Source of the DNA: Fistulifera solaris
Taxonomy: Eukaryota
DNA length: 64,000 bases
Assembly: GCA_030295235.1 (NCBI GenBank)
Contig: AP026150.1
Location: forward strand, 372,001-436,000
Direction: 5' to 3'
In this document: in pieces, positions 2,711-24,972 of the stretch
Position numbering within the stretch: position 1 is the first letter of the stretch
How the letters are laid out: every line of letters begins with the position of its first letter
Position numbers and translations under genes: made by a program
The notes under the pieces: generated by a model
Database searches by the model: none
Seen by the model: the letters and a program-made list of their open reading frames with translations, nothing else
Told to the model about the DNA's origin: nothing

Positions 2711-5499
2711 TTAAAGTAAGAAATAAGCATGATCGCGTTGTCTAGAGATTTGAGTCTTATTGTATTTGTTAAAAGAAATTTCGCATATACGACAGCCCCA
2801 ATCCATGGAGCTGCTCGCTAACAATAATTTGGTTTGTGCGGTATCTCGAAGTGGTTGCCATGCCAGCTTCGTTACTGTGTCAATGTGACACGCATCGGGT
2901 GGGAATGCCAACACCAGCCGGGGAGGAGTATCGTCTAAAGAGTCTGTCGGAACTTCAAACAGTTCGATTCGTCCGGATTCCAGACCCACGGCTATAACAC
3001 CTCTTCGTTGTCTGTCGTCGTGAACAGGAATGGGTGCAAAGGCCAGCGCCGTCACTGAATCTGGTTTTTGCTGGATCTTAAACGAAGGTGCGAATTGACA
3101 GAGTTCGGTAACTTGCGTGGTCAAGTCCTGTGTATCAATCTTCCATACCTTGATACAACCATCTCGAGAGCCAGAGGTTAATATAGTTTCATCGTAGGGG
3201 CAAAAATCAACCGACCAAATAATGCGTTTATGTGCCGTGTCCTTACTCCAGGATAGCTCAAATAGCTTGCCGGGTGATCCCGTCCTTTCCACAAGCACAA
3301 TCTTCTATCTTTTCCGGAAGACACTAAAAATTGACCATCCGGGGAAAAGGAAAGTGTAGCTACCGTCGATTTATGTCCACCGCTAAGCGTTTGGGCGCAT
3401 TTGCCGGCCTCGACATCCCAAAGACGTACACTAGCTGCTTCGGCATCACGTGCCTTGCACGATGAGGCAACCAAGACATCGCTGAAAAATGACTTCGTTT
3501 TCGGCTCGTACAGAGGACTTGCCGTTCTCGACATAAGTGTCGAGGTGAGACAGAACAGCTCCGTATTGTGCCCGAATAGTTTTCGTGTTTCCGGCCACAA
3601 CGATGCCACTCCTAAATCTCGTTCCAAAGGTAGCTTCACACTCGTCAGACTAAAGGCATCACTCCCCCCTTCACCCTCCATGGCATCGGCTTCTTCCGCC
3701 CGATCGGCGGCACTGGCTTTGTTGCTTAGACCGAGGGAAGGGATAAAAGCCCGATCGACACGTTCGATGTCATCGTCCACTGAGTTGGCCTCTCCGTGAA
3801 TGGTCTGTAGCATACAAAGGGTCGTTCGTGGTGCATCAAATACTCTCAGCTCTTTCTCTTCCGCCCCTGTCACCATCAAGTGCTTGTGTTTTACCGAAGA
3901 AATCGAGGCAATGGAGGTCAAGTTATAACCGTGTACTTGAGGGCGTGCCAACTCCACCCAAATGGAGTCCTTGTCAGATTCTTCGATGGGAGCCCATAAC
4001 CGACAGGTCTGATCGTTACTAACTGTCAATAAATATTCACCTTGCGACGTTTCCCAACAAAGATCCGTGATGCCACCAAAATGCCCAGTGATACAAGGTG
4101 TTGCTTTCCACCGGACAAAGGAGGCACGTTCTTCCAGCGGTAACGAATTCAATTCTTCTTCCTGTTGTTGTGAAATCAATTCGCTGGTCCAAATGTGAAG
4201 GCTTCCTCCATACGCTTGTCCCACCAAGTAGCGTCCATTGGAAGGATTAATCGTAGCACCACAATATCCGAGCAGTGATGAACCTACCGACCCACCTAAA
4301 ATTCCTCCGGCACTTCCCACTCGTGTCAAAGGCGTCCAAATACCTTCCAATGTGGGACCCCACAGCATAATCGCCCGATCCATACTACTGCTAATCAGTA
4401 GCTTATCGTAACCGTACATCGGTTGTGGATTTGTATGCCATTTGACACAAGTCACGCTTTCCTCGTGCCCGACTAACAGCGCCTCTAACGTGACTTTGGT
4501 CACATGTTGCACCAAGTTATTGCTATTCTGCGACGCATTCGGTACGGCGAATTCGATGCGCGATTCTCCTTCTTCATCCTCTTCCACGCCATCTTTATTT
4601 CCTTCACTCAGATCATCATCCGGATCCTCCATATCGTCAGGTACAGTATCGTCTAGCACGCTCGTCACCTTTTCCGTATACGTTCGAAACATCCATAATC
4701 GAATGCGAGCATCCTGACTCGCGGACGCCAGCAACGAATATTCGGTAGAGTGCCACCAATCCATACTCGTAATCCAGTCTTCATGTCCCGATAATGTACC
4801 CACTAAATGCGGAGTCGTCCCGTCTAGACGATACACCCATATTTTGTTGTGTCGAGGATTGGCGGTTCCGATCAAGGCCAAGAGGGATGAATGATGCTGC
4901 TGAAAGGAACACGAGCACACGGCCGAATCCAGCAAAGATACGGTGTCTTGGACCACAATTGTCAAAGAATTGGTGCTAATATGACAAGTGTAGAGGGTTG
5001 CACCCGCAGATGTTCCCGCTAGCACAAAGAGCGTTTCTGTGTTGTTGTTGCCCTCGGCAGTATTAGGATGAACCGTGGGACAAATGGAACCAATCGATCG
5101 ACTCGCCGTCGACAAAACGTGCTCCTTCCACAAAAGTGATTCCGATCGAATCCATACAGCGATCGTTCCGTTAGAGAATCCGCACGCAATTCCATTTCTA
5201 CCGAACACACTCATGGCCGATATCACCGGCCGTTGATCACCCGGAAGAACCGGATTCTGTTCGACAAAAGACGACCGTAATGTCTGCCGCACCGTCCATA
5301 CCGGCTCTTCCTTTTTCCACAAGCGTCGTTCCGCTAAATAAATGAGAGCATTTGATGCGTAAACGAGGGTATCGTTGCCATTGTCGTTTCCTCGAATCCA
5401 GTCAACGGCGTGACGAAAAGACGATGCGGCAGCTCCTTGATGAACGGTGTGAAAGGACGGTGAGTGCGTGCTATTTTCTGGCCCTGAAATTTCTGCCAT
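2711..5499 (-). CDS. ELP2: Elongator complex protein 2 (WD40), one apparent frameshift near 3280
   Basis: GHEDWI, LASASQD..IRLW, ELARPQVHGY, LWPE..KLFGH and AHKRIIWS motifs; ORFs 3178..5499 and 2711..3298 overlap in different frames. Confidence 0.92.
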
Positions 5500-8311: not shown

Positions 8312-11170
8312 TTAATACAAATCCACCCGGCCCGACGAGAACACACGTCGATGAGCGTGTTTCGCTTTGCCCGGGTGCGACGGCGAACGCAATTGTTCCA
8401 ACGCGGGTTCGTACTCAAACAATAAGTTGTTTTTCTCTAAATGTCGAATTTGCTCCACGTCAGCTTTGAGAATGGCTTCATCGTGATGCATCAGGATGAC
8501 GCTACCAATTCCGGTAAACAAATCAATGGTGTAATCCACTTTGGTGCCCGGCTTGACACCCGTCTCTAGGTACACAAAGGAGGGTAGTGTACGAATCGTG
8601 TCGAATCCGGGTGTGGATTTGACAATGCCGCGGGCATACGAAACCAGAATGACTTCTTGGCCGGCAGCCTTGAAAGGACTCGGCGGTATACTGGGCAAGG
8701 TCAAAAACGCTTGCTTGTCCAAATAGGCATCGACGGAGGAATCCACCTGAGAATGGCCTCCCGTTAATGCGCGACACAAAGGTCGCCAATTGCCATCGCC
8801 ACCATGTGCACGGCAGTTCATCTCCACCAGACACGGACCATCAGGGGTCATCATGACTTCACCATGCGATGGACCATTTTTGAATTCCAGAGCATCCAAC
8901 ACTTTCCGAACGTAAGGAATCAGAATCTTTGCTTCGGGAGAATCCGAGGGTACTGGGATCATTCCAAAGTAAACAAAAGCAGCTCCATTGGTCTCACGTT
9001 TGTCGTAAACCCACACCATGGATGTTTTGTGCACACCGTCGCGAGAAACGTGATCCACGACGTATTCTTTCCCTCGAAGAAATTCCTGGCAAAGAACAGC
9101 AGGACAATCGCCACCGTTCACCAGCTGTGATTTCATTAACACATCAAAATGCTCTTTTGCTTCGTTGAAATCGTGACATAGCTTGACACCATCTGAACCA
9201 GCACTCTCAGTAGGCTTCAATACTACTGGATAGCTCTCGGTGCGTAAAAAGTGTTCCACTTCAGCAAACGTTGTACCGGCCGCTTGACGAATCGATCGCA
9301 TGCCCTTGGCCGCAATCAGTTCTTGCTGAATCTTCTTGTCTCGGCGATTCGGGATACCGGTACCATTCGAACGCACATTCATCCGCTCCGACAACTGATC
9401 CGCCAAATCGACACCAGCCTCCCCACCAGCAATGCATGCGACAACGCGAAGAGTTCCCGCTGCCTTGATGACCAATTTTTCCGTATCGGCTAACCCTGTT
9501 TTCGGTTCCGTGACTTCGGCATGATACGTCAAGGATGTGCAGCTCAACGGAATGTGCTTCTTCATTTCTTCTGAAAAGCCATCGGTCCACAGTGCGATCA
9601 CTTTGTATCCCCGTTTGAAGATTTCTTCCGCCACCAAACAACCAGTGGAGTACGGGTCTACCACGACAACCACTTCCTTCGAGGCATCCACGGTCGTCAT
9701 ACGTCGTATCAGTCCACCACGAAGCTCCGGACGATCATTGGACATGTGGCGTACTAAATTCGGACCATCGGAAGAAAAGGGGTATTGAATGATCTTGGGT
9801 TCCAAGATACTTGGCATGACGTACGAGTCACCGCGAGGCCGTTTGAGCGCTTCGAGACGTGTTTCGTAGGTAAAGAAGCCATTAATTTCCTCCAAGTAAC
9901 GAATAAAATCCACATCTTTCTGTAATACCTGAGGGTCTTCATGCATCAGAATAGCACTACCGATTCCTGTCACTAGATCCGTCGTGTAGTCTACATACGA
10001 GCCTTCTTTGATACCCGTCTCCAGATATACAAAGGACGGCAAGCATCGAATCACATCGTATCCGGGAGTGCCTTTAACTTTTCCTTTCGAGTACGAGACC
10101 AGAATAATTTCTTGTCCAGCAGCTTTGAACGGACTCGGAGGTCGTTCCGGATACCGATGGAAAGCTTCTTCATCGAGAAGGGCGTCGACAGCCCCTTCGA
10201 CCTGCGAGAATCCTCCCGTCAAAGCACGACAGAGAGGCCGCCAGTTCCCATCCCCGCCATGCGCACGACAGTTCATTTCCACCAAGCATGGACCATCTGC
10301 TGTCATCATGACTTCTCCATGAGAAGCTCCATTTTTGAACTCGAGTGCGTCCAAAACAGTTCGAACATAGGGGATCAAAATTCTGGCTTCCTCGGATTCG
10401 CTATCCACGGGCAACATACCAAAATAGACAAAGGCGGATCCATTCGCTTGCCGTTTGTCGTACACCCACACCATGGTCGTCTTATGAACGCCATCACGTG
10501 AGACATGATCAACTACATACTCCTTTCCCCGCAAGAATTCTTGACACAGTACGGCTGGACACTCTCCTCCATTGACCAACTGCGATTGCATCAATGTATG
10601 AAAATGCTCCACCGCTTCTTCGTATGTATGGCACAGCTTGACTCCATCTGACCCAGCCGATTCGGTCGGTTTCAAAACAATCGGATATGGCTCGGTGCGC
10701 AAGAATTCTTCCACTTGACTCAATTCGTCTCCGGCCGCTTGACGCACCGATCGCAAACCCGCCGCCTTGGCCAATTCTTGTTGAATTTTCTTGTCACGAC
10801 GATTCGGAATGGCCGTCCCGTTGGTGCGAACACCGAGTGCTTCCGACAAAGCGTCCGCCAGGTCGACTCCGGCTTCTCCTCCCGCCAAGCATCCCACAAT
10901 GGGCAATCCAGTGTGCAAGACAGCTTCTTTGGTTTGTTCGTGTGTGGCTTTTTCTTCCAACACATAATCGTACGTCAATTTCCCACACGATATGGGAACA
11001 TGAGCTTTCATTTCTTCCGAGAATCCTTTCGTCCAGAGGCAAATAAGTCGATATCCTCGACGAAGGATTTCTTGGGCGACGAGACATCCTGTCGAATATG
11101 GATCGACAATTACGACGGCTTGTGGGTCCTCTAATTGCGTCATGCCGCTTTCCATTGACTGAGGAGGCAT
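8312..11170 (-). CDS. Double ATP-grasp domain protein (L-amino-acid ligase / NikS-DdaF-BacD-like), copy A
   Basis: Two internal repeats each with VIVDPYSTG, RRDK, VLKPTESAGSDGV, QEFLRGKEYVVD and HGEV...LVEMNCR ATP-grasp signatures; likely start MPPQS at 11170. Confidence 0.88.
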   Translation of the reverse strand: MPPQSMESGMTQLEDPQAVVIVDPYSTGCLVAQEILRRGYRLICLWTKGFSEEMKAHVPISCGKLTYDYVLEEKATHEQTKEAVLHTGLPIVGCLAGGEAGVDLADALSEALGVRTNGTAIPNRRDKKIQQELAKAAGLRSVRQAAGDELSQVEEFLRTEPYPIVLKPTESAGSDGVKLCHTYEEAVEHFHTLMQSQLVNGGECPAVLCQEFLRGKEYVVDHVSRDGVHKTTMVWVYDKRQANGSAFVYFGMLPVDSESEEARILIPYVRTVLDALEFKNGASHGEVMMTADGPCLVEMNCRAHGGDGNWRPLCRALTGGFSQVEGAVDALLDEEAFHRYPERPPSPFKAAGQEIILVSYSKGKVKGTPGYDVIRCLPSFVYLETGIKEGSYVDYTTDLVTGIGSAILMHEDPQVLQKDVDFIRYLEEINGFFTYETRLEALKRPRGDSYVMPSILEPKIIQYPFSSDGPNLVRHMSNDRPELRGGLIRRMTTVDASKEVVVVVDPYSTGCLVAEEIFKRGYKVIALWTDGFSEEMKKHIPLSCTSLTYHAEVTEPKTGLADTEKLVIKAAGTLRVVACIAGGEAGVDLADQLSERMNVRSNGTGIPNRRDKKIQQELIAAKGMRSIRQAAGTTFAEVEHFLRTESYPVVLKPTESAGSDGVKLCHDFNEAKEHFDVLMKSQLVNGGDCPAVLCQEFLRGKEYVVDHVSRDGVHKTSMVWVYDKRETNGAAFVYFGMIPVPSDSPEAKILIPYVRKVLDALEFKNGPSHGEVMMTPDGPCLVEMNCRAHGGDGNWRPLCRALTGGHSQVDSSVDAYLDKQAFLTLPSIPPSPFKAAGQEVILVSYARGIVKSTPGFDTIRTLPSFVYLETGVKPGTKVDYTIDLFTGIGSVILMHHDEAILKADVEQIRHLEKNNLLFEYEPALEQLRSPSHPGKAKHAHRRVFSSGRVDLY

Positions 11171-11767
11171 ATTAGTTGTTACTTTTCTAAGAAAATATTG
11201 ATTAGCTTCTAAAATAGACTTTTCCAGCGAGAAAGAAAGAAATGCATTAAAGCGAACAACCGACAGAGATGCCAAAAAAAAAAGATTTGCGGGTTTTCTT
11301 CTTATACGTGTGTATTTCGGGGAACATTTTCACTGGCCGACGTGTGACTCCGAATGTAAGATTCGGTACTGATCACTATGGATATTGGTGAGGACAACTT
11401 GTCGTACCGAACATGTCACCACCACTCATTAGCAGCTGGTGAAAGTTCAACGATTGCCGCAGACGGAACGGATGGCAGGCGATGGAAGAAAAAGTGACGG
11501 AAAAAGTTCGGCACTTGTGCCACAGGCCCAATCTGCAAGTGCAAGAATGATTTCGAAGGAAGGTGTGACGTGAAGAAGGCTCCCTCGCTACCAGTACGTA
11601 GAGATATGAATCGTGAACTAAACTGTTTGCTCGGTCTATTCGGAAATAGCTAAGGTTAGCTATAGGACACAAGCACACGTAGCTCGTCTAGTCTGCAAAA
11701 GATGAAGACTCACTTCAAAATTCTTCAGAAAAGCTATCTTAATATTACTGTCCCGGCAACCTTAGCT

Positions 11768-14582
11768 TCAATACAAATCGATACGGCTAGCGGAAAAGTA
11801 GCATTGGTGGTTATGTTCGTCCCTCTTTTTGTGACCCAAGCTTTCTAGGGGATCCTCGTATTCAAACAGCATATCATCCTTTTCCAATTGTCGAACTTTA
11901 TCGGCATCTTGTCTTAAGATAGCATCATCGCGATGCATTAAAATGACACTGCCAATACTGGTGACCAGATCGACCGTGTAATCCACCTTGGTGCCCGGCT
12001 TGACACCTGTTTCCAGATACACGAACGATGGTAGCTTACGAATGATATCAAATCCGGGTGTCGACTTGACCACGCCACGCGTGTATGAAACCAGAATAAC
12101 TTCTTCGCCCGAAGCTTTGAACGGACTGGGAGGAATATCCCGTAACGCAGAGAATGCGGCTCCGTCCAGATACGAATCCACGGCCACTTCCACTTGCGAG
12201 TATCCGCCCGTGAGCGCCCGTGCGAGAGGACGCCAGTTGCCGTCGCCCCCGCGAGCCCGGCAATTCATTTCAACCAAGCATGGGCCATCCGGCGTCATCA
12301 TTACCTCACCATGAGAGGGACCATTCTTCAGACCCAGTGCATCCAGAACTTTGCGAACATATGGGATCAATATCTTTGCTTCGGGAGATTCTGAGTCCAC
12401 AGCATAGCAGCCATAATAGACAAAGGCAGCACCATTCGCTGGTCGCTTGTCATAGACCCACACCATGGTTGTCTTGTGGACGCCATTACGCGAAACGTGG
12501 TCAATGACATACTCCTTTCCACGCAGAAACTCTTGGCACAAGACTGCTGGGCACTGACCACCGTTCACCATCTGTGAGCGCATCAATAAATCAAAATGAT
12601 CCTTGGCCTCGTTAAAATTGTGACAAAGTTTTACACCGTCCGACCCGGCACTTTCCGTAGGTTTCAAAACGACAGGATAGCTCTCGGTGCGCAAAAAGTG
12701 CTCCACTTCGGCGAATGTTGTACCCGCTGCTTGACGAACTGATCGTAAACCACTGGATGCAATCAATTCTTGCTGGATCTTCTTGTCTCGTCGGTTGGGA
12801 ATTTCGGTTCCGTTGGTTCGCAACTGCAAACGTTCAGAAAGTTTATCAGCGAGATCCACACCCGCCTCACCTCCAGCAAGACAGGCAACTACGCGAAGAG
12901 CTCCCGCTGCCATCAATACAAGTTTCTGTGTGTCTCCCAGTCCTGTTGTCGGCTCCGTTACCTCGGCATGATACACAAGAGACGTACAGCTCAAAGGAAT
13001 ATGTTTCTTCATCTCTTCAGAAAACCCATCGGTCCACAGTGCGATTACCTTGTATCCGCGTTTGTAGATTTCTTCCGCAATCAAGCACCCCGTGGAATAG
13101 GGGTCCACGACTATAACTGCTTCTCGAGAGGCGTCGATCGTAGTCATCCGACGAATCATGGAACCCATGAGTTCCGGGCGATCATTGGACATGAGACGAA
13201 CCAGATTAGGACCTGATGATGAGAACGGGTACTGCGCAACGCCGGACTCGGACAGAGTTGGTAGCGCGACTGACTCTGTCCGTGGGTGGCTGAGCTGTAC
13301 TGCCACCGACTCGAAAACGAAGATTCCTTTGATTTCTTCCATGTAACGAATAAAGTTGACATCTTTCTCTAAGACAGCTGGGTCTTCATGCATGAGAATA
13401 ACACTGCCGATCCCAGTGACTAAGTCAACCGTGTAATCCACTTCGGATCCAATTTTAATACCTGTCTCGAGATAGACAAATGAAGGCAAACAACGAATCA
13501 TGTCATATCCTGGTGTTGCTTTGACCTTTCCTTTTGCGTAGGAGACCAGGATCACTTCTTGACCGGCTGCTTTGAACGGACTCGGAGGCCGTTCCGGATA
13601 TCGATGAAAGGCTTCTTCATCCAACAATGCATCTGCTGCTCCTTCCACTTGGGAGAAGCCTCCTGTTAAAGCACGACACAGAGGACGCCAATTACCGTCT
13701 CCGCCCCGAGCACGACAATTCATTTCCACCAAACAAGGACCATCGCTAGTAATGATGACTTCACCATGAGATGCACCATTCTTGAGACCCAAAGCATCCA
13801 GCACTTTGCGCACATAAGGGATGAGAATCTTGGCCTCTTCTGACTCACTATCGACCGCATCACAGCCAAAGTAGACAAAGGCAGCCCCATTGGCGGGTCG
13901 TTTGTCGTACACCCACACCATGGTCGTCTTGTGCACACCTTCGCGTGATACATGATCTACCACATACTCGTTGCCTCGTAAGAATTCTTGACACAATACT
14001 GCTGGACATTCTCCACCATTAACCATTTGCGATCGCATCAACGTATGAAAGTGATCCACCGCTTCCTCGTACGTATGACACAATTTTACACCATCCGATC
14101 CGGCCGACTCGGTCGGTTTCACGACGATCGGATAAGGTTCTGTTTTCAAAAAATCATCGACTTCCGCTAGCGTCGTTCCACCCGCTTGACGAACCGATCG
14201 CAAACCGGCTGCCGCAATTAACTCTTGCTGCACTTTCTTGTCGCGTCGATTGGGAATAGCGGTACCATTCGTACGAAGACCGAGTGCTTCCGACAGCGCA
14301 TCCGCCAGGTCGACTCCGGCTTCGCCTCCGGCAATACAGCCAATAATGTTCATACTCGTGTCTAAAACGGCTTGCTTGGTTTTTTCCAAAAGTCTCTTGT
14401 TCGTCAAGGGTATAAGCATAAGTCATGTTCTCACACGACATGGGGACATGTTGTTTCATTTCTTCCGAAAAACCCTTCGTCCAGAGACAAATGATCTCGT
14501 TGCCTCGGCGACTGATTTCTTGTGCGATCAGACATCCTGTCGAGTACGGATCAACAATAATGACAGTCGTTGTACTGTTCAT
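11768..14582 (-). CDS. Double ATP-grasp domain protein, copy B (tandem paralog; apparent frameshift near 14390)
   Basis: ORF 14154..14582 supplies the N-terminus (VIIVDPYSTG) and ORF 11768..14419 the rest; collinear with copy A; break lies in a homopolymer. Confidence 0.87.
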
Positions 14583-16330: not shown

Positions 16331-17679
16331 ATGACAGGCGGCGGCGACTCGACGGCGCACAAATCGTGCAGTCTCACGGAAACCATTATCTTTTGCTGGC
16401 GATTGTCTCCGGAACGGCGTGCTCGATTTGCAGCAAAACGATGATGGAACAACACGCCATCGGCATCGATGGAGATTACGAAAAATTTGAAAAACCTTTA
16501 TTTCAGACATTGGGAATGTTCATTGGGATGATTGCGGGTTTGTTTATGCACGCGATTGTCATGTATTGGAAGATTCCGTTTCCGGGGTATGTCTTTCCGT
16601 CCAGCGCATCGCCGAATGGTGGTGCGGTTCCGACCGAGAAGGATCGTCTTTTGAAGCAGTTGCCGACTCTGGAGCAGCCTGAGACACAGGCGGTACCCGT
16701 CTGGATGTATTTCTTTCTCATCATTCCGGCCATCTTCGATTTAGGGGCCACGGCACTCTGTATGATGGGATTGCGATACTTGGATGTGAGCATCTATCAA
16801 ATGCTGCGCGGTAGTGGCATTATTTTTGTCGCACTCATGAAGCAGCATGTTTTGAAGGACCGACTGTACAATTTTCAATGGCTCGGTGTCTTTTGGAATG
16901 TCGTCAGTGTGCTGTTGGTGGGAGGAACGGCTTTGTTGAATTCTGCGGACGAATCAACATCCAATGTGGACCCCGGCAAAGCCATGCTGGGCCTGGGACT
17001 GGTACTCACGGGAGCATTCGTGCAAGCACTGCAATTTGTGTTTGAAGAAAAGGTAATGACGATGGATGTTCCTTCGCCTCCGTTATTGCTGATCGGAATG
17101 GAAGGTTTGTGGGGGACCCTTCTGTCGTTGTTCGTACTCTACCCGGTTGCCTACTACTTGCCGGGAGATGACCATGGCTCGTACGAAAACCCGTTCAATA
17201 CATGGTACATGCTGGTCAACTCGACAGACCTTCAGATCTGGTTCTTTGTTTACTTCTTCGCCATTTTTGGTTATAATCTCTTTGCTGTCCTAGTCACGTT
17301 CTTGCTCAACAGCGTGTGGCATGCCATTCTGGACAACTTTCGTCCCATTACAGTTTGGGGTACCGATATGTTTATCTTTTATTTCATTTCGGCTCAGTTT
17401 GGAGAGACCTGGACCCCGTATAGTTGGATTCAGTTGGTGGGGATGGCGGTCCTTTTGTACGGAACGGCGATTTACAACGCTCCCAATTCAGGGAGCTTGC
17501 GTTTGGAAGGCGGACCCGAGGGTTGTTGCCTCAATTTTCGTGACGAATACGAAGACATTGAACGGCGATTGGAAGACGAGCGGTTGCATGCCGAATGGCT
17601 CAATCGCAAAATGTCGTTTGCGGAGACACGTCTTACCGGATCGTTCGCTGGAGAGTGGTTGGGGAGCACGCGCTTATAA
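16331..17679 (+). CDS. SLC35F/drug-metabolite (EamA-like) transporter
   Basis: About 10 hydrophobic segments; FEKPLFQTLGMF, SIYQMLRG, QFVFEEK and GMEGLWG motifs; ATG at 16331 joins the ORF if one T is restored near 16392. Confidence 0.85.
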
Positions 17680-17983: not shown

Positions 17984-19151
17984 TCATGTTGCGTCCAAGA
18001 GCACCTTTTGAGCAACTTGTCTTCCAGACAAAATGGCACCATGCACAGACGCAAAGTGCGGTTCGTTTAAGTAAGCACCAGCGAAGTATATCTTGTCATC
18101 GACCGGCTGTAAGATCGTTCCCTGGTGAAATGGCGGAGTATAACCTGCTTCCCACGACTCTTCAATGAACGGTTCCTTTGACCAGTTTTGTACGCGGTGT
18201 TGAATATAATGCTCGCTGGCCTTCCCACGAAAAATGGTGTCGAGCTCATTCATGTGAAACTCAAACAACTCCTCGTCACTCAACTTGATCAGATCACTCG
18301 TTTCTGCGCCCCCAGCTGACAGCATAGTCAGAACGTTCCTTCCAGTTGGCTTTTCGAAAACACCGTCGAAATAGATTCGATAGGAATCAAGGATGGTATA
18401 GTCTTTGTAAAATTGCTCGTCGAATTCAAACCATATTTTGAAACCTTCGTACGGTACCACCTTGTCTATTTCTGTCGTTTTCGCAGTAGGAAGATCCGGC
18501 ACATATTCAATTCTTCCATTTTTTAACATGGTCGGGGGGAACGGCAAGTATTACTTTGTCTGCCTCCAAGGTATCTCCGGCAGCGGTTGTAACTTGTATC
18601 TTAGCGCCCGTGTAATCAATAGTTGTCACAGGTGTATTCAACTGCACACGGTCCTGAACATACGTATGCATATAGTCATTAAGGTAGGATTTCCATGTTG
18701 TGCTTTTGAATTTCCACTCTCGATAGAAAAGCCAGCGTAGCGGCAAAGGCACTTTGACGCGATCACCAAGAACCTGGCGGTATCTTTCGGGTCGATAAAC
18801 GATGGTTTCCTCGGTTACAGTATCATTAAACAATATCATATCTTGCAATATACGCGGGTGCGTATGAATCCACTCGGCCCCTAAATCAAGCGGTATATCG
18901 ATGAAATCATCCATTTCCTGGACTCGTCCACCAATCTCCTCCTTGGCCTCGAGAATTTGATAGTTGCGGAAGCCAAAATATTCCAGTGTGTAGGCAGCCG
19001 AGATTCCCGCTGGTCCTGCACCTATAATGATAATGCTGCCCTCGTAGTCTGTCGAGTCGAGCTCCAAAGGTGGAACCTCACTATATCGGCCATTTTTCCA
19101 GATGAACGCGTCGAAAGTGCACCACAGCACAAGAAGAAAAGGTAAGTACAT
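17984..19151 (-). CDS. Flavin-containing amine oxidase with signal peptide (apparent frameshift near 18540)
   Basis: IIIIGAGPAGISAA FAD motif, EA...IGGR, DLGAEWIH and C-terminal IYFAG...VHGAILSG; start MYLPFLL at 19151. Confidence 0.85.
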
Positions 19152-19761
19152 CAAACAGATGGGTGGCTTACTTAAATCAAGCGATGTCAAATGGATTACT
19201 CCCCAGTATTTTGTATCGTTTTTGTTTAAATCATGACGTTGCCGATCGGCTTGTCGGCATGAGAGTTGCGCTTGTGTTAGCATTGTTCGTTTACGGTCTT
19301 GTGGAAAGTTGGCGGTTGGCGCGCACTTCCTCAATGTCCCTTTTCGTGGTTTTTGAATTTTAAAAATAAGTACGGAGTACTGCGCAAATAGGGCCCGATC
19401 AGCAATGACCTGGTGAGCTTTATTCTCTATAGTAAATCGTCCATTGACAGATTTGCTTTGTCCATTCTGCACATAATTTCTCATTGTCTTTTTTTATGAC
19501 TTTTAGGATTTAAGGATAAAGACACTCCGAACTCCGAAGTATTTTTTTTCTTGTTTTCGTCGGAGAAAACATTCGGCGTCTCGACTGCAATGCATCACAT
19601 TGCAACACTTCTCTTCGAGCGACTTTCAACATTGCACATGCACAGCATTGCACGATAGGTAGGAAAACAAAGCAACGTATCCCCTATAACCGACTCAGAA
19701 CGAAGACGAAATCGGTTGAACTTTCTATTAAAGTTCGCACGAAAACGAAACAGAAGAGCCC

Positions 19762-21247: not shown

Positions 21248-22393
21248 TCATTGTGTTGATGGCACTGCATCCGATGCAGAAGTCGGCGTTTGTGTTGCGA
21301 TGCGCTGCAAAAATTGCAACAACAGCGGATGCACCAATTCTGGTGCTTCATCGTGAGGACAATGTCCGACTCCGTCGAACCCTTCGACCCGCTCGACCGT
21401 CGGCATGCGAGACAGTGCCTCCACACGCGGACCCGGTGTCCACGGATCATCTTTGCCGTAACAGATCCACACGGGTTTTTGGACTTGCTGTAACTGCTGT
21501 TCGGGCAAGGGACCTGCTGAATATGATAACGTATCAAAGACGACCCGACTGGATCCTTCCGTCAACAGCGGATCCAGTAGAACTTGTACCAACGTATCAT
21601 CTACGGCCTCGGTCCGCGCATACGGCTCTTTCAATATTTGTTTGACGGTATCGGGTTTGGCCAAGGCATCAAAGACTGTTTTCCCATACTGTCGCAACAG
21701 CGACTGCACCGTCCGTAAGATGGGCATCACGACACCAGCCAATGGCACTTCCGCGGAATGCAACTCCCGAAAATTAGGACTGACCACAAAGGCCCCGTCA
21801 TACAGTTCTTCGTCGTCGTCGTCAATGAGACACTGCAATGTACTAATGGTCCCAATGGAGTTGCACACTAACGTCACTTTTTCCTTGGGTTGGATCACTT
21901 GCTTCGTAAAGTCAGTCAACAGATCACTCCACGTGAAAAAGTTGTAACAACTTGACACTGGATGACGCAAATCCACATTCGCGATGCGTGTTTCGCCCCT
22001 TGCGGTCCCCAATTCGACATTTTTTATGACAGACGGTGCATCTTTAAAGCGAGCATATTCTCCGCACAAATGGGGTGAATAAGACGGCGGTTTATCCGAA
22101 TATCCCGATCCCAACAAATCAACGGCATACGTGCGATAGCCGCGTTCTCCCAATTCCTTCAATGTTTTGCGCCAGTGATCGCTATTGACAAATAAACCGT
22201 GCACCAGTAGTACAGGTTTTCCTTCCGGTGGACCGGAAACTTGGTACCGTATCTTCGTTTCGGCTTTCCAATCATAAAATTGATTGAGAAGACCCGTGGC
22301 TGGACTGATTTTAGGGGGAGCGGAGAGTCCTTGACTCGTCCAAAGGGGAAAGACGAAAAGTAAAAACACACAAGTGATCCTTTTTATCATCAT
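21248..22393 (-). CDS. Alpha/beta hydrolase, pheophytinase-like family, N-terminal targeting peptide
   Basis: LLVHG, DLLGSGYS, NSIG nucleophile elbow, D.DPW and GHCPHDEAPE motifs. Confidence 0.85.
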   Translation of the reverse strand: MMIKRITCVFLLFVFPLWTSQGLSAPPKISPATGLLNQFYDWKAETKIRYQVSGPPEGKPVLLVHGLFVNSDHWRKTLKELGERGYRTYAVDLLGSGYSDKPPSYSPHLCGEYARFKDAPSVIKNVELGTARGETRIANVDLRHPVSSCYNFFTWSDLLTDFTKQVIQPKEKVTLVCNSIGTISTLQCLIDDDDEELYDGAFVVSPNFRELHSAEVPLAGVVMPILRTVQSLLRQYGKTVFDALAKPDTVKQILKEPYARTEAVDDTLVQVLLDPLLTEGSSRVVFDTLSYSAGPLPEQQLQQVQKPVWICYGKDDPWTPGPRVEALSRMPTVERVEGFDGVGHCPHDEAPELVHPLLLQFLQRIATQTPTSASDAVPSTQ

Positions 22394-23061: not shown

Positions 23062-24972
23062 ATGAGTTTTTGTAGAAATGCTGCGCTTCTGCTTCTCATC
23101 TTGACAATATGCGTCAACGGGGAACGACCATCATCATCTTTACCGCTGAGTCGGCGTTCCCTACAGCAATCTTCACCAAATGATGACTCTTCCTCGACAA
23201 ACGACAAAAGTATTGTATCGAGCTCTTTTTCGAGTGCTTGGCCTCCTTGGCCGTTCAATCTCTTGTCGCCAACGACGACGACGACGACGACACGTAGTAG
23301 CAGCAGTGGCTGGAAGAATCGAGCTTGGCAACAAACACGACAATCACTGAAAGTCGCCGCCCGTCATACCCAACAACTCACCTCTTCACTCTACATGCAC
23401 TTGCCCCCGGCCGCGCATCCTTTTCTGATGATAGCCTGCATTCCACGTCATCAGAAAATACCGCTATTCTCCAATCCGTTGGCGCGATCTATAGGACTGG
23501 CATCCATGGGCATGGCCATTGTCAGTTGGGCGCATTGTGATTGGTATCGACAAAAGTCGTTGGTTCCGTTGCCTTTGGTATATCCAGATGTGCATCGTGC
23601 TATATTGCCGCCGTTCTTGCCCGAAACACCACCACTCGAAGTAAACACGCGCAACAAGGATTCTTCCCCGGACCCGACAACCAATCGCGCTGGGATCGAA
23701 GAAAACCGCAACCAATGGTTACCATTCCGACACAAATGGAGCTCTATTTCCAAGATCCCGTGGCCCTTGAGTCGTCGTTGGCAAACAATGCGCCAAAAAC
23801 GGCACATGCAACGGCTTCAGGAGCGTCGGCGTGTCATCTACGATGAATTGGTCGCATTGCAGACACTCAAGCGACAGCAAACGATGAAACACGAGGATAC
23901 CAAGGAACCGTTGGGATATGCCCTTGTCACGGGAGCCTCCAAAGGCATAGGGCGAGCAATTGCGGTCGAACTGGCTCGATGGGAAATACCCTTGATACTG
24001 GTAGCTCGAAATATTGATCGCTTGATTTCACTGGCCAATGATCTGGAGAATTGTTACGGTGTGAAATGCTGTGTCTTGGAAGCCGACTTGTCCAAGCCAC
24101 ATGTCGCGGAGCGTGTGTACAAAACCACGCAAGAAGCGGGGCTTCGCGTGGATATTCTCGTCAACAATGCCGGTACGGCATCCCATGGAATTATCGTAGA
24201 TCAACCACTAAAGGAAGTCAATCAAATGCTGCAACTCAATGCGGACTCCAGTGCAGTCCTTTCGAACTTGTTTGGTCACGAAATGAAGAAGCGACGGAGA
24301 GGACGCATACTGTTCGTTTCCTCTGTGAGTGGAACTGTGGCCGGTATATCGACCCTGGCGCTCTACTCTGCCACGAAAGCGTTCCAAAACTCACTGGCAG
24401 TAGCTTTGGCAAAAGAGATGGAACCGTGGGGAGTGGGGGTGACATGTCTCATGCCCGGAGCTGTAGAAGATACCGACTTTTCCAAGAATACTGACAACGC
24501 TTTGTGCTGGAAAATACCGTTTTATCCGAAAAAGCCACAGATCATTGCCAAAGTGGGAGTACGTGCCATGCTGCTCGGTGAAACAGAGGTAGTTCCAGGT
24601 TGGCAAAATCGTTTCTTTGTAAAGGTTCTAAAGCCAGCACTTCCTCAAAGACTCCATAATGTCATTGCCGAAACTGCGTGGAATCCTATTCGACCACCTT
24701 TTCAAAACTCGCATCGGCCTGGATTGGATGCTGAAAATCAGAATCACAATAAGTCACCAACTCCGCCCGCGCCCGCACGACCAAGCAATTTAGGTCATTT
24801 CTTCTCTCAACCTGGCCCACAACGACTGCCACGACTATTGCTACTAGGTCCAGAACCCAATGAGATGAATGATGGCGCGAAGGTTGAAGTAGATCCAAGC
24901 GACTTATCACATGATCATTATGATGAGGACGATAGGTCTGAACCAGTCGAAGGAACAAGCGATTTTAAATAG
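23062..24972 (+). CDS. Short-chain dehydrogenase/reductase with signal peptide and long N-terminal extension
   Basis: ALVTGASKGIG, LVNNAG and YSATK catalytic motifs. Confidence 0.88.
   Translation: MSFCRNAALLLLILTICVNGERPSSSLPLSRRSLQQSSPNDDSSSTNDKSIVSSSFSSAWPPWPFNLLSPTTTTTTTRSSSSGWKNRAWQQTRQSLKVAARHTQQLTSSLYMHLPPAAHPFLMIACIPRHQKIPLFSNPLARSIGLASMGMAIVSWAHCDWYRQKSLVPLPLVYPDVHRAILPPFLPETPPLEVNTRNKDSSPDPTTNRAGIEENRNQWLPFRHKWSSISKIPWPLSRRWQTMRQKRHMQRLQERRRVIYDELVALQTLKRQQTMKHEDTKEPLGYALVTGASKGIGRAIAVELARWEIPLILVARNIDRLISLANDLENCYGVKCCVLEADLSKPHVAERVYKTTQEAGLRVDILVNNAGTASHGIIVDQPLKEVNQMLQLNADSSAVLSNLFGHEMKKRRRGRILFVSSVSGTVAGISTLALYSATKAFQNSLAVALAKEMEPWGVGVTCLMPGAVEDTDFSKNTDNALCWKIPFYPKKPQIIAKVGVRAMLLGETEVVPGWQNRFFVKVLKPALPQRLHNVIAETAWNPIRPPFQNSHRPGLDAENQNHNKSPTPPAPARPSNLGHFFSQPGPQRLPRLLLLGPEPNEMNDGAKVEVDPSDLSHDHYDEDDRSEPVEGTSDFK

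What the first reader, a model, noticed from the sequence alone, without database searches (positions are those of the whole stretch)
8312..14582. Mosaic substitution pattern: both domains of each gene share gene-specific residues near the active site
Seen: both domains of copy A have EMNCRA-H-GG, FVYFG-M(L/I)P-V, L-EF-KNG and SQ-L-VN. Both domains of copy B have EMNCRA-R-GG, FVY(F/Y)G-C(D/Y)A-V, L-GL-KNG, SQ-M-VN and KRPANG. Other positions follow domain identity across the genes (TEPYPIV vs TESYPVV, HTYEEAV vs H.FNEAK, GASHGE vs GPSHGE). Simple fusion-then-duplication does not give this pattern. Inference: intragenic gene conversion, or parallel selection so each gene has one substrate specificity in both modules. 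The H/R and MxP/CxA sites are candidate specificity determinants.
Basis: partly seen in the sequence, partly recalled or inferred. Interest (0 to 1): 0.7.

Follow-up and report, generated by a model that had tools for sequence, protein, structure and literature searches.

The report
Matched active-site changes in twin ligase genes
Two neighbouring diatom genes each encode an enzyme built from two similar ligase modules, and after the genes duplicated, each gene made the same few amino-acid changes near the catalytic centre in both of its modules, most likely by parallel substitution and not by DNA copying between modules.

Summary
Copy A (8312-11170, -) and copy B (11768-14582, -) are tandem paralogues. 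B is 100% identical to a Fistulifera solaris protein. Each fuses two L-amino-acid-ligase-type ATP-grasp modules.

In the four-module alignment, 10 columns are gene-specific (AN=AC, BN=BC), 1 shows the mirror cross pattern, and 31-33 are module-specific. The binomial p is 0.006. A rate-aware test gives 15 co-changed columns against 8.5 expected (p 0.03). Partial patterns show no excess (5 vs 9).

Gene conversion finds no support:
- Synonymous sites give G 14 against X 14.
- Codons at and beside the sites differ between modules.
- A GENECONV-like run test gives p 0.52 and 0.60.
- Module-specific residues lie within 1-3 codons of several sites.

Synonymous sites are saturated, so old short tracts cannot be excluded.

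Outgroups show that the fusion is old and the A/B duplication is lineage-specific. One gene keeps the ancestral state at each site. A changed M>L, C>M and G>E in both modules. B changed P>A and H>R, plus four conservative changes.

By homology to RhiC and BacD, H/R sits between two residues that hold the first substrate's carboxylate, and M/C and P/A follow the omega-loop. The best reading is parallel pocket remodelling. The evidence is modest and the substrates are unknown.

The parts
8312..11170 (-). Copy A: 952-aa protein of two LAL-type ATP-grasp modules. The ORF runs up to a TTG at 11275, but homologues start at MPPQS.
   Evidence: ORF. Pfam PF13535 84 bits with 2 stretches. P0001 is 99% identical, 952 aa, and starts MPPQS.
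9727..11119 (-). Copy A, N module (AN)
   Evidence: Alignment. Best solved relative is L-amino acid ligase 30vh_A, E 2.8e-40.
8315..9673 (-). Copy A, C module (AC)
   Evidence: Alignment. NCBIfam PRK07206 scores 301.3 bits against a cut-off of 302.
11768..14582 (-). Copy B: two-module paralogue, 937 aa when read through the frameshift
   Evidence: ORFs 14154-14582 and 11768-14419. 100% identity over 870 aa to P0005, FisN_18Lh175 of Fistulifera solaris.
14381..14390 (-). 1-base frameshift in copy B, in a T4/A6 homopolymer stretch. The window has one base more than the reading of P0005.
   Evidence: Sequence. The frames join at 14391/14380. P0005 reads ET-LEK-TKQ. All contigs that cover 14388 in 4 of 4 runs lack one letter there, but each carries 6-39 other differences.
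13124..14567 (-). Copy B, N module (BN), including the frameshift
   Evidence: Alignment
11771..13123 (-). Copy B, C module (BC)
   Evidence: Alignment. PF18603 LAL_C2 scores 37.7 bits against a cut-off of 29.4.
10259..10261 (-). A H304 (CAT), the EMNCRA-H-GG site. C-module twin H789 is at 8804-8806 (CAT). B has R at 13706-13708 (CGG) and 12251-12253 (CGC).
   Evidence: The site lies between the equivalents of RhiC R275 and G278.
10409..10417 (-). A M252-L-P254 (ATG TTG CCC). C-module twin is at 8954-8962 (ATG ATC CCA). B has C-D-A at 13856-13864 and C-Y-A at 12401-12409.
   Evidence: The sites lie at the end of strand 245-254, just after the predicted omega-loop hairpin.
10577..10579 (-). A L198 (TTG) in SQ-L-VNGG. 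C-module twin L683 is at 9122-9124 (CTG). B has M at 14024-14026 and 12569-12571.
10337..10342 (-). A E277-F278 in L-EF-KNG. C-module twin is at 8882-8887. B has G-L at 13784-13789 and 12329-12334.

Best explanation
Copy A and copy B arose by a tandem gene duplication specific to the Fistulifera lineage. The duplicated gene was already a much older fusion of two L-amino-acid-ligase-type ATP-grasp modules.

The nearest outgroups carry the same pocket residues in both modules (M, C, P, G, H at match columns 180, 234, 236, 259, 286). After the duplication each paralogue changed that pocket, and made the same replacements independently in its N and C modules:
- A: M>L, C>M, G>E.
- B: P>A and H>R, plus V>I twice, V>L and E>D.

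The inferred mechanism is selection that keeps the two catalytic pockets of one polypeptide matched, because both act on the same or a shared substrate moiety. When a paralogue shifted specificity, both pockets therefore had to be remodelled. Some of the conservative matches are probably chance.

Shown here: the pattern, its polarity, the lack of a nucleotide-level conversion signal, and the position of the sites by homology. Inferred: selection, and any effect on specificity.
For: Architecture and family:
- Two ATP-grasp stretches per protein.
- 125 of 132 family proteins split cleanly into N and C modules.
- N and C modules form separate groups in the all-module tree, except in 5 proteins.

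Duplication age, on a 48-row IQ-TREE with the G columns removed:
- FisA and FisB are sisters (SH-aLRT 99), inside a clade with P0009 and P0010 (99).
- Joining B to the other R-type clade is rejected: AU p 9e-5, delta lnL 246.

Excess of gene-specific sites:
- G 10 vs X 1, p 0.0059.
- Polarised with 5 outgroups, same-column changes are AN/AC 4 (3 to the same residue) and BN/BC 11 (7 the same). The cross pairs give AN/BC 1 (1) and BN/AC 4 (2).
- The rate-aware expectation is 8.5 within genes against 15 observed (p 0.027), and 6.7 across genes against 5 observed.

Nature of the changes:
- C>M needs two nucleotide changes in each module (TGT/TGC to ATG).
- Columns 236 and 286 are slow. Family-wide parsimony counts 6 changes in N and 1 in C at column 236, and 5 and 10 at column 286. 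The column means are 15.3 (N) and 13.9 (C).
- Among 124 C modules, L180+M234 occurs only in Fistulifera A and A236+R286 only in Fistulifera B. In each case the partner N module has the same pair.

Location:
- RhiC R275 and G278 bind the carboxylate of the first substrate, and E258 and E271 bind Mg. The window's E-M-N-C-R-A-[H/R]-G-G puts H/R between the equivalents of R275 and G278.
- The first-substrate pocket of RhiM and RhiC is formed by the omega-loop and the C-loop. RhiM Q232, just after the omega-loop, is needed for activity. M/C and P/A lie at the end of the hairpin strand 245-254, within about 2-4 residues of that position by spacing from the Mg-ligand Glu.
- In the BacD alignment, H/R falls two residues before W332 (3wo1 is titled as the Trp332Ala mutant).

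All four modules keep KP..ESAGSDG, QEFLRG, SHGE and EMNCR.

The second-subgenome copies keep the pattern at 39 of 40 positions.
Against: - The signal is small and depends on the test. Partial patterns go the other way (within-gene 5, cross-gene 9), and pooled the count is 15 vs 10, p 0.21.
- Four or five of the 10 sites are conservative toggles in fast columns. In 55 other pairs, the same 10 columns together give G 8 vs X 11.
- Matched pockets are not a family rule. Many lineages have N = L,M with C = M,C or L,T.
- The parsimony co-change of same-position N and C columns across the family is only 998 against 947 expected.
- The within-protein excess of N-C identity has a median of 0.002 and is positive in 67 of 125 proteins.
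- Independent-pair tests on single pocket columns are underpowered (median p 0.25 to 1).
- No coordinates were available, so distances to the substrate were not measured.
- Substrates and activity are unknown.
- Copy B carries a frameshift in this window.
Confidence: 0.55

Rival explanations
1. Chance parallelism. The gene-specific sites are ordinary homoplasy in a strongly constrained protein, with no selection for matching.
For: - Partial patterns show no within-gene excess (5 vs 9), and pooled the count is 15 vs 10, p 0.21.
- The rate-aware excess is only about 6.5 columns, p 0.027.
- The conservative sites (columns 2, 13, 170) toggle with G about equal to X in other pairs.
- The pattern was picked out after the sequence had been seen.
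Against: - G 10 vs X 1 is a symmetric test over all columns, p 0.006.
- The non-conservative changes sit in slow columns. The only C-module P>A in the whole family tree falls on the branch where the N module does the same.
- C>M needs two base changes in both modules.
- Five or six sites cluster in the catalytic core, and alone they pull the core tree into gene-wise groups with support 92 and 89.
Confidence: 0.2
2. Old short-tract intragenic gene conversion between the N and C modules of the same gene, most plausibly N to C. Its synonymous trace has since been erased.
For: - N-C exchange does occur in this family. The N and C modules of P0055, P0045 and P0011 form one group of 6 tips, and P0127_N and P0128_N sit inside the C group. 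Within-protein N-C identity reaches 0.84 against a median of 0.68, and G:X is 14:1, 19:4 and 5:0 in those pairs.
- The states gained by the Fistulifera C modules (L+M, A+R) are otherwise seen only in N modules.
- dS between A and B is 1.7 or saturated, so the power to see an old tract is low.
- Columns 174-241 hold no module-specific site, so one early tract covering A's columns 180 and 234 cannot be excluded.
- The gene-wise core clade is not rejected without the G sites: AU p 0.40 and 0.43.
Against: - Synonymous third positions give G 14, X 14, D 34, so the trace of the older A/B split survives while no within-gene trace does.
- Codons at and beside the sites differ: TTG/CTG, CCC/CCA, GCG/GCT, CGG/CGC, and the flanking codons too.
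- The run test gives p 0.52 and 0.60, and sliding windows show no within-gene excess.
- Module-specific residues lie 1-3 codons from the sites at columns 2, 13, 96 and 170, and between 236/259 and 260/286. B would therefore need about six separate tracts, several of 3 codons or fewer.
- Without the 6 core sites, the nearest neighbours return to module-wise.
Confidence: 0.13
3. Contact co-evolution. The two modules pack as a pseudo-dimer, and the matched residues touch each other, or a shared surface, across the pseudo-twofold axis. They therefore change together for structural reasons, not for substrate reasons.
For: - The full-length model has pTM 0.75 and mean pLDDT 83.7, which suggests a defined arrangement of the two modules.
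- This could account for the matched V/I sites in the first strand and first helix of the N-terminal subdomain (columns 2 and 13).
- A weak family-wide G excess exists: 132 vs 91 in 55 pairs, p 0.007 pooled. The pair-level sign test gives 28 vs 18, p 0.18.
Against: - By homology, the H/R site lies between two substrate-binding residues, and M/C and P/A lie at the pocket-forming loop. That is the catalytic cleft, not a dimer surface.
- No coordinates or contacts could be read, so the interface was not tested.
Confidence: 0.1

Closest known systems
Bacterial L-amino acid ligases of the ATP-grasp superfamily (solved: chain 30vh_A 'L-amino acid ligase', BL00235 3VOT, BacD/YwfE 3VMM/3WNZ, RizA 4WD3, RhiM/RhiC)
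   Same: - Each module spans a whole single-module ligase of about 420 aa.
- The profile of the four modules hits 30vh_A at E 6.5e-50 over positions 4-420, and BacD at 4e-10.
- Foldseek TM, normalised to the target, is 0.76 for 3VOT, 0.71 for 4WD3 and 0.66-0.67 for BacD/YwfE.
- The Mg ligands, the catalytic Arg and the Gly after it are conserved.
   Different: - Two modules are fused in one 940-950-aa chain.
- The genes are eukaryotic (diatom).
- No substrate is known.
- The equivalog models are far from met: DdaF 156-176 bits against 840, BacD 26-40 against 850.
NCBIfam NF005543 (PRK07206, 'hypothetical protein', about 416 aa)
   Same: It is the best family model for each of the three modules scanned, covering model positions 4-412 of 416, at E 1e-83 to 7e-90.
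   Different: Scores are 281.3, 301.3 and 301.7 bits against a cut-off of 302, so all are just below it. The family has no assigned function.
Carbamoyl-phosphate synthetase large subunit (two homologous ATP-grasp halves in one chain)
   Same: It shows the same logic of an internally duplicated ATP-grasp enzyme. It gives the top full-length Foldseek matches, at E 3.5e-30.
   Different: - The global fit is poor: TM 0.29, rmsd 31 Å, 13-14% identity.
- TIGR01369 scores 18-23 bits against 1027.
- That the CPS halves catalyse different steps is established knowledge, not tested here.

Membership tests
ATP-grasp superfamily | ATP-grasp domain models score above the curated cut-off | tested here: met
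   PF13535 scores 84.2 bits (A) and 94.2 bits (B) against a cut-off of 27, with 2 stretches each. PF02655 and PF01071 are also above their cut-offs.
ATP-grasp superfamily | Catalytic motifs: Lys and Gly-rich loop, hinge E-F-L, two Mg-binding acidic residues, Arg after the second | tested here: met
   All four modules have LKPTESAGSDGVKL, QEFLRG, SHGE and EMNCR.xGG. These match RhiC K147, the P-loop, E258, E271, R275 and G278 by motif spacing.
L-amino acid ligase (LAL) group | Sequence and fold similarity to solved LALs over the whole module | tested here: met
   30vh_A at E 6.5e-50 over profile positions 4-420. TM normalised to the target is 0.76 for 3VOT.
L-amino acid ligase (LAL) group | LAL C-terminal domain 2 (PF18603) | tested here: inconclusive
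   B scores 37.7 bits (cut-off 29.4), matched in the C module. A scores 28.8 bits, just under the cut-off. No stretch was reported in either N module.
L-amino acid ligase (LAL) group | ATP-dependent ligation of free amino acids | not testable with these tools
   This needs an enzyme assay.
NCBIfam PRK07206 subfamily | Score at or above the curated cut-off of 302 bits | tested here: not met
   281.3, 301.3 and 301.7 bits for AN, AC and BC. BN was not scanned.
Dapdiamide synthase DdaF / BacD equivalogs | Score at or above the equivalog cut-off | tested here: not met
   DdaF scores 156-176 bits against 840. BacD scores 26-40 bits against 850.
Intragenic gene conversion (process) | Within-gene concordance at synonymous sites, or tracts of raised nucleotide identity | tested here: not met
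   Synonymous G 14 vs X 14. Run test p 0.52 and 0.60, and sliding windows are flat. Codons differ at and beside the sites. Power is low because dS is saturated.
Parallel (convergent) substitution after duplication | One gene keeps the outgroup state while the other shows the same derived residue in both modules, in excess over the cross-gene control | tested here: met
   10 same-residue within-gene co-changes against 3 cross-gene. 15 co-changed columns against 8.5 expected, p 0.027, with the cross control at 5 against 6.7.

The most novel reading that the evidence does not exclude
Diatoms carry a widespread, undescribed two-module L-amino-acid-ligase enzyme. Its first-substrate pocket is set by a small residue code at match columns 180, 234, 236, 259 and 286, and the code recurs in a few configurations, for example M-C-P-G-H, L-M-P-E-H and M-C-A-G-R. 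In Fistulifera, a tandem duplication was followed by a switch of both pockets of each copy to a different configuration. That would be a natural two-site specificity swap, and the introduced Arg next to the catalytic Arg in copy B would point to an acidic or otherwise anionic substrate.
Probability: 0.3. Interest if true: 0.6.

Novelty: new variant of a known kind. Interest (0 to 1): 0.4.

Why it matters
If the reading is right, the locus is a compact natural experiment. The same polypeptide holds two catalytic pockets, and both were retuned in step after a gene duplication. That would give a short, testable list of specificity-determining positions for an uncharacterised ligase family found across diatoms.

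At least 125 full-length two-module members were recovered here. My searches found no paper describing them: searches returned 0, 1 unrelated and 4 unrelated listed papers.

It also illustrates a general point. Gene-specific residues shared by repeated domains need not mean gene conversion. The mirror cross pattern and the synonymous sites are simple controls.

The practical value is limited until a substrate is known.

Tried and rejected
- Whole-genome search of the window's own genome: none is held.
- A plain MAFFT alignment of full-length proteins put N modules against C modules in about 50 rows. I replaced it with HMM-based splitting.
- Family-wide parsimony co-change of same-position N and C columns: 998 against 947 expected. 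The Fistulifera sites are not among the top 30 columns, so this gave no strong general signal.
- Independent-pair sign tests on single pocket columns were underpowered, with median p 0.25 to 1.
- I tested whether B is an orthologue of the other R-type clade (P0014, 88, 74, 90, 120, 96, 111, 102, 95). It is rejected, AU p 9e-5. The shared M-C-A-G-R signature with P0014, P0088 and P0074 N modules is therefore convergent.
- The third homologue search, with one module as query, returned mostly truncated diatom gene models among the 120 listed. No named single-module relative appeared, so bacterial outgroup states were not obtained.
- Sequencing runs: no RNA holder is listed on record. No contig without differences spans the frameshift, so the window's own allele could not be checked.
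- Earlier notes of this scan held nothing for this place or sequence.
- The diatom HGT preprint 10.1101/2020.01.24.918219 does not mention ATP-grasp in its main text (find only). Its supplements were not seen.
- Structure tools returned no coordinates, so residue-to-ligand and module-module distances could not be measured.
Full report
**What is there.**
The region holds two head-to-tail genes on the minus strand. Copy A is the ORF 8312-11275. Its homologues start at MPPQS, so the gene is 8312-11170 and encodes 952 aa. Copy B is split into ORFs 14154-14582 and 11768-14419.

The two B frames overlap at a homopolymer stretch (ACTTTTGGAAAAAACC), and one extra base separates them. The protein P0005, named by NCBI as FisN_18Lh175 of Fistulifera solaris, is 100% identical to the 870 aa after the break. 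Its first 64 residues match the first frame, and it reads straight through as ET-LEK-TKQ. So the window is F. solaris or a very close strain.

P0006 is 97% identical to B and P0001 is 99% identical to A. They are the likely second-subgenome copies. F. solaris is described as allopolyploid in the abstract of PMC5935921, which I saw only in a search listing.

Each protein has two ATP-grasp stretches (PF13535, PF02655, PF01071) and an LAL_C2 hit in the C module. Each module is a complete ligase of about 420 aa:
- The best NCBIfam model is PRK07206, at 281-302 bits against a cut-off of 302.
- DdaF is next, at 156-176 bits against 840.
- The best solved relative is a chain that the tool names 30vh_A, 'L-amino acid ligase', at E 6.5e-50.
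- BacD follows at 4e-10.

A full-length AlphaFold2 model built on 50 aligned sequences has mean pLDDT 83.7 and pTM 0.75. In Foldseek, single modules match LALs (3VOT TMt 0.76, RizA 0.71, BacD/YwfE 0.66-0.67). The whole chain matches carbamoyl-phosphate synthetase only loosely (TM 0.29).

**Checking the observation.**
I split both proteins into N and C modules (AN, AC, BN, BC), with X at the B frameshift, and aligned them.

Over 444 gap-free codon columns:
- 10 are gene-specific (G: AN=AC, BN=BC, A differs from B);
- 1 shows the mirror cross pattern (X: AN=BC, BN=AC);
- 33 are module-specific (D).

In 441 HMM match columns the counts are G 10, X 1, D 31.

Under fusion first and duplication later, G and X both need homoplasy and should be equally common. 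Ten against one gives p 0.0059, one-sided. Partial patterns do not agree: within-gene 5 and cross-gene 9, so pooled 15 vs 10, p 0.21.

**Is it gene conversion?**
- At the nucleotide level, third positions give G 21, X 22, D 48. First and second positions together give G 15, X 7.
- In codons whose amino acid is the same in all four modules, third positions give G 14, X 14, D 34.
- dS is 1.7 (AN-BN) or saturated for every other pair.
- The codons of the shared residues often differ between the two modules of a gene: L TTG/CTG, P CCC/CCA, A GCG/GCT, R CGG/CGC, C TGT/TGC. The flanking codons differ too.
- A GENECONV-like permutation of the longest concordant run gives p 0.52 for AN-AC and 0.60 for BN-BC. 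Sliding windows show no within-gene excess.
- Module-specific residues lie 1-3 codons from several G sites, and between the core sites.
- In the catalytic core (columns 175-300), the tree groups AN with AC (support 92) and BN with BC (89). This holds only while the 6 G sites are included. Without them the nearest neighbours are module-wise again, although the gene-wise clades are not rejected (AU p 0.40 and 0.43).

So there is no positive evidence for conversion. Old short tracts remain possible, because synonymous sites are saturated and columns 174-241 hold no module-specific marker.

**History and polarity.**
Searches with A and with B each listed 120 proteins, 130 different ones in all, nearly all two-module diatom proteins. 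Named sources include Seminavis, Nitzschia, Pseudo-nitzschia, Cylindrotheca, Thalassiosira, Skeletonema, Chaetoceros and Attheya.

Of 132 rows, 125 split cleanly into two modules. Seven truncated rows were dropped: P0008, P0064, P0094, P0107, P0108, P0126 and P0129.

In the tree of all modules, N and C form separate groups except in five proteins. The N and C modules of P0055, P0045 and P0011 cluster together, and P0127_N and P0128_N sit among the C modules. So the fusion is old, and module homogenisation or replacement has happened elsewhere in the family.

On a 48-row IQ-TREE with the G columns removed, Fistulifera A and B are sisters (99), inside a clade with P0009 and P0010 (99) and P0013, P0016 and P0017 (99). 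Forcing B together with the other clade that has Arg at the H/R site is rejected (AU p 9e-5).

Polarising with the five outgroups gives 18, 27, 42 and 44 changes on the AN, AC, BN and BC branches. Another 45 column-module cases were unresolved. Same-column changes are:
- AN/AC: 4, of which 3 are to the same residue (M>L, C>M, G>E);
- BN/BC: 11, of which 7 are the same (V>I twice, V>L, E>D, P>A, H>R, and to V at column 379);
- AN/BC: 1 (1 the same);
- BN/AC: 4 (2 the same, both in the poorly aligned tail).

With column rates taken from the family, 8.5 within-gene co-changes are expected against 15 seen (p 0.027). Across genes, 6.7 are expected against 5 seen.

So at each G site one gene keeps the ancestral state in both modules, and the other carries the same derived residue in both. 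KRPANG, SQM and GC in B are retained ancestral states.

**Where the sites lie.**
I read sections 6 and 8 and found passages of the RhiM/RhiC paper, PMC13579937.
- In RhiC, E258 and E271 bind Mg, and R275 and G278 hold the carboxylate of the first substrate.
- The side-chain pocket is made by the omega-loop and the C-loop.
- RhiM Q232, just after the omega-loop, is needed for activity.

The window's E-M-N-C-R-A-[H/R]-G-G has the same E-x3-R-x2-G spacing, so H/R lies between the two carboxylate-binding residues. In the BacD alignment it is two residues before W332. That W332, E273 and H276 shape BacD specificity is recalled, not read here.

M/C and P/A lie at the end of strand 245-254, which follows the hairpin 228-254 containing KRxANG. 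That is within about 2-4 residues of the Q232-equivalent position, judged by spacing from the Mg-ligand Glu.

L/M lies just after helix 183-196 in the lid subdomain. In RhiM, the end of the equivalent helix moves toward the active site on ATP binding.

EF/GL is in the turn before the strand that carries the first Mg ligand.

The V/I, V/L and E/D sites are in the N-terminal subdomain or on helices. No coordinates were available, so these placements rest on homology and are not measured.

**Family context.**
Within one module, the pairs at columns 180/234 and 236/286 are coupled.
- M+C and L+M dominate: 65 and 27 of 124 N modules.
- A236 goes with R286 in 7 of 9 N modules.

The five-site signature of A (L-M-P-E-H) occurs in four other N modules. 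That of B (M-C-A-G-R) occurs in three other N modules. Among C modules, each occurs only in Fistulifera.

Columns 234, 180 and 286 rank 3rd, 7th and 11th of 441 for excess N-C identity within a protein. This ranking is not corrected for phylogeny.

Over 60 disjoint protein pairs, G totals 189 against X 99. Leaving out the Fistulifera pairs and the homogenised lineages, 55 pairs give 132 against 91 (p 0.007 pooled). The pair-level sign test gives 28 vs 18, p 0.18.

However, the Fistulifera G columns are not recurrent in those pairs (G 8 vs X 11). Many lineages have unmatched pockets. Matching is therefore not a family rule. It fits a clade whose ancestor already had matched pockets, as in P0013 and P0017, which have M-C-P-G-H in both modules.

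**Verdict.**
The pattern is real and not an assembly artefact. It is best explained by parallel amino-acid replacement in both modules of each paralogue after a lineage-specific duplication, centred on five or six positions at or near the first-substrate pocket. Some conservative matches are probably chance.

My confidences are: parallel replacement 0.55, chance 0.20, old micro-conversion 0.13, inter-module contact 0.10.

I found no paper on this two-module diatom ligase. Its function and substrates are unknown.

Noticed in passing
window 14381-14390 (copy B, minus strand): Copy B has a 1-base frameshift in a T4/A6 homopolymer stretch. The NCBI protein P0005 reads through it. Every contig that covers 14388 in 4 of 4 runs lacks one letter there, but those contigs carry 6-39 other differences, so they are the other subgenome or relatives. 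It may be an assembly indel or a real lesion.
   Followed up: partly
proteins P0055, P0045, P0011 (Attheya sp.) and P0127, P0128: The N and C modules of the same protein cluster together, unlike the rest of the family. Within-protein N-C identity reaches 0.84 against a median of 0.68. This points to whole-module homogenisation or replacement in other diatom lineages.
   Followed up: partly
proteins P0014, P0088, P0074 (N modules) compared with copy B: These share copy B's five-site signature M-C-A-G-R, although the tree rejects a common clade with B (AU p 9e-5). The pocket configuration looks convergent and recurrent.
   Followed up: partly
match columns 180/234 and 236/286 of all modules: There is strong within-module coupling: M+C or L+M at 180/234, and A236 with R286 in 7 of 9 N modules. 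This suggests the positions act together. It was not corrected for phylogeny.
   Followed up: partly
window 11171-11275: The mechanical ORF of copy A extends 35 codons upstream to a TTG. Homologues begin at the ATG of MPPQS (11170), so the extension is probably not translated.
   Followed up: partly
proteins P0012 and P0038: Both are listed with the same longest contig length (14135). They may be another tandem pair of two-module ligase genes in a different diatom. Their residues at the ten sites are nearly the same.
   Followed up: no
window 16366-17679 (+): This 437-aa ORF looks like a multi-pass membrane protein in its translation but has no Pfam hit at E 1e-5. Other neighbours are ordinary: WD40 at 3178-5499, amine oxidase at 18507-19484, alpha/beta hydrolase at 21248-22393, and short-chain dehydrogenase at 23062-24972. 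There is no sign of a biosynthetic cluster.
   Followed up: partly
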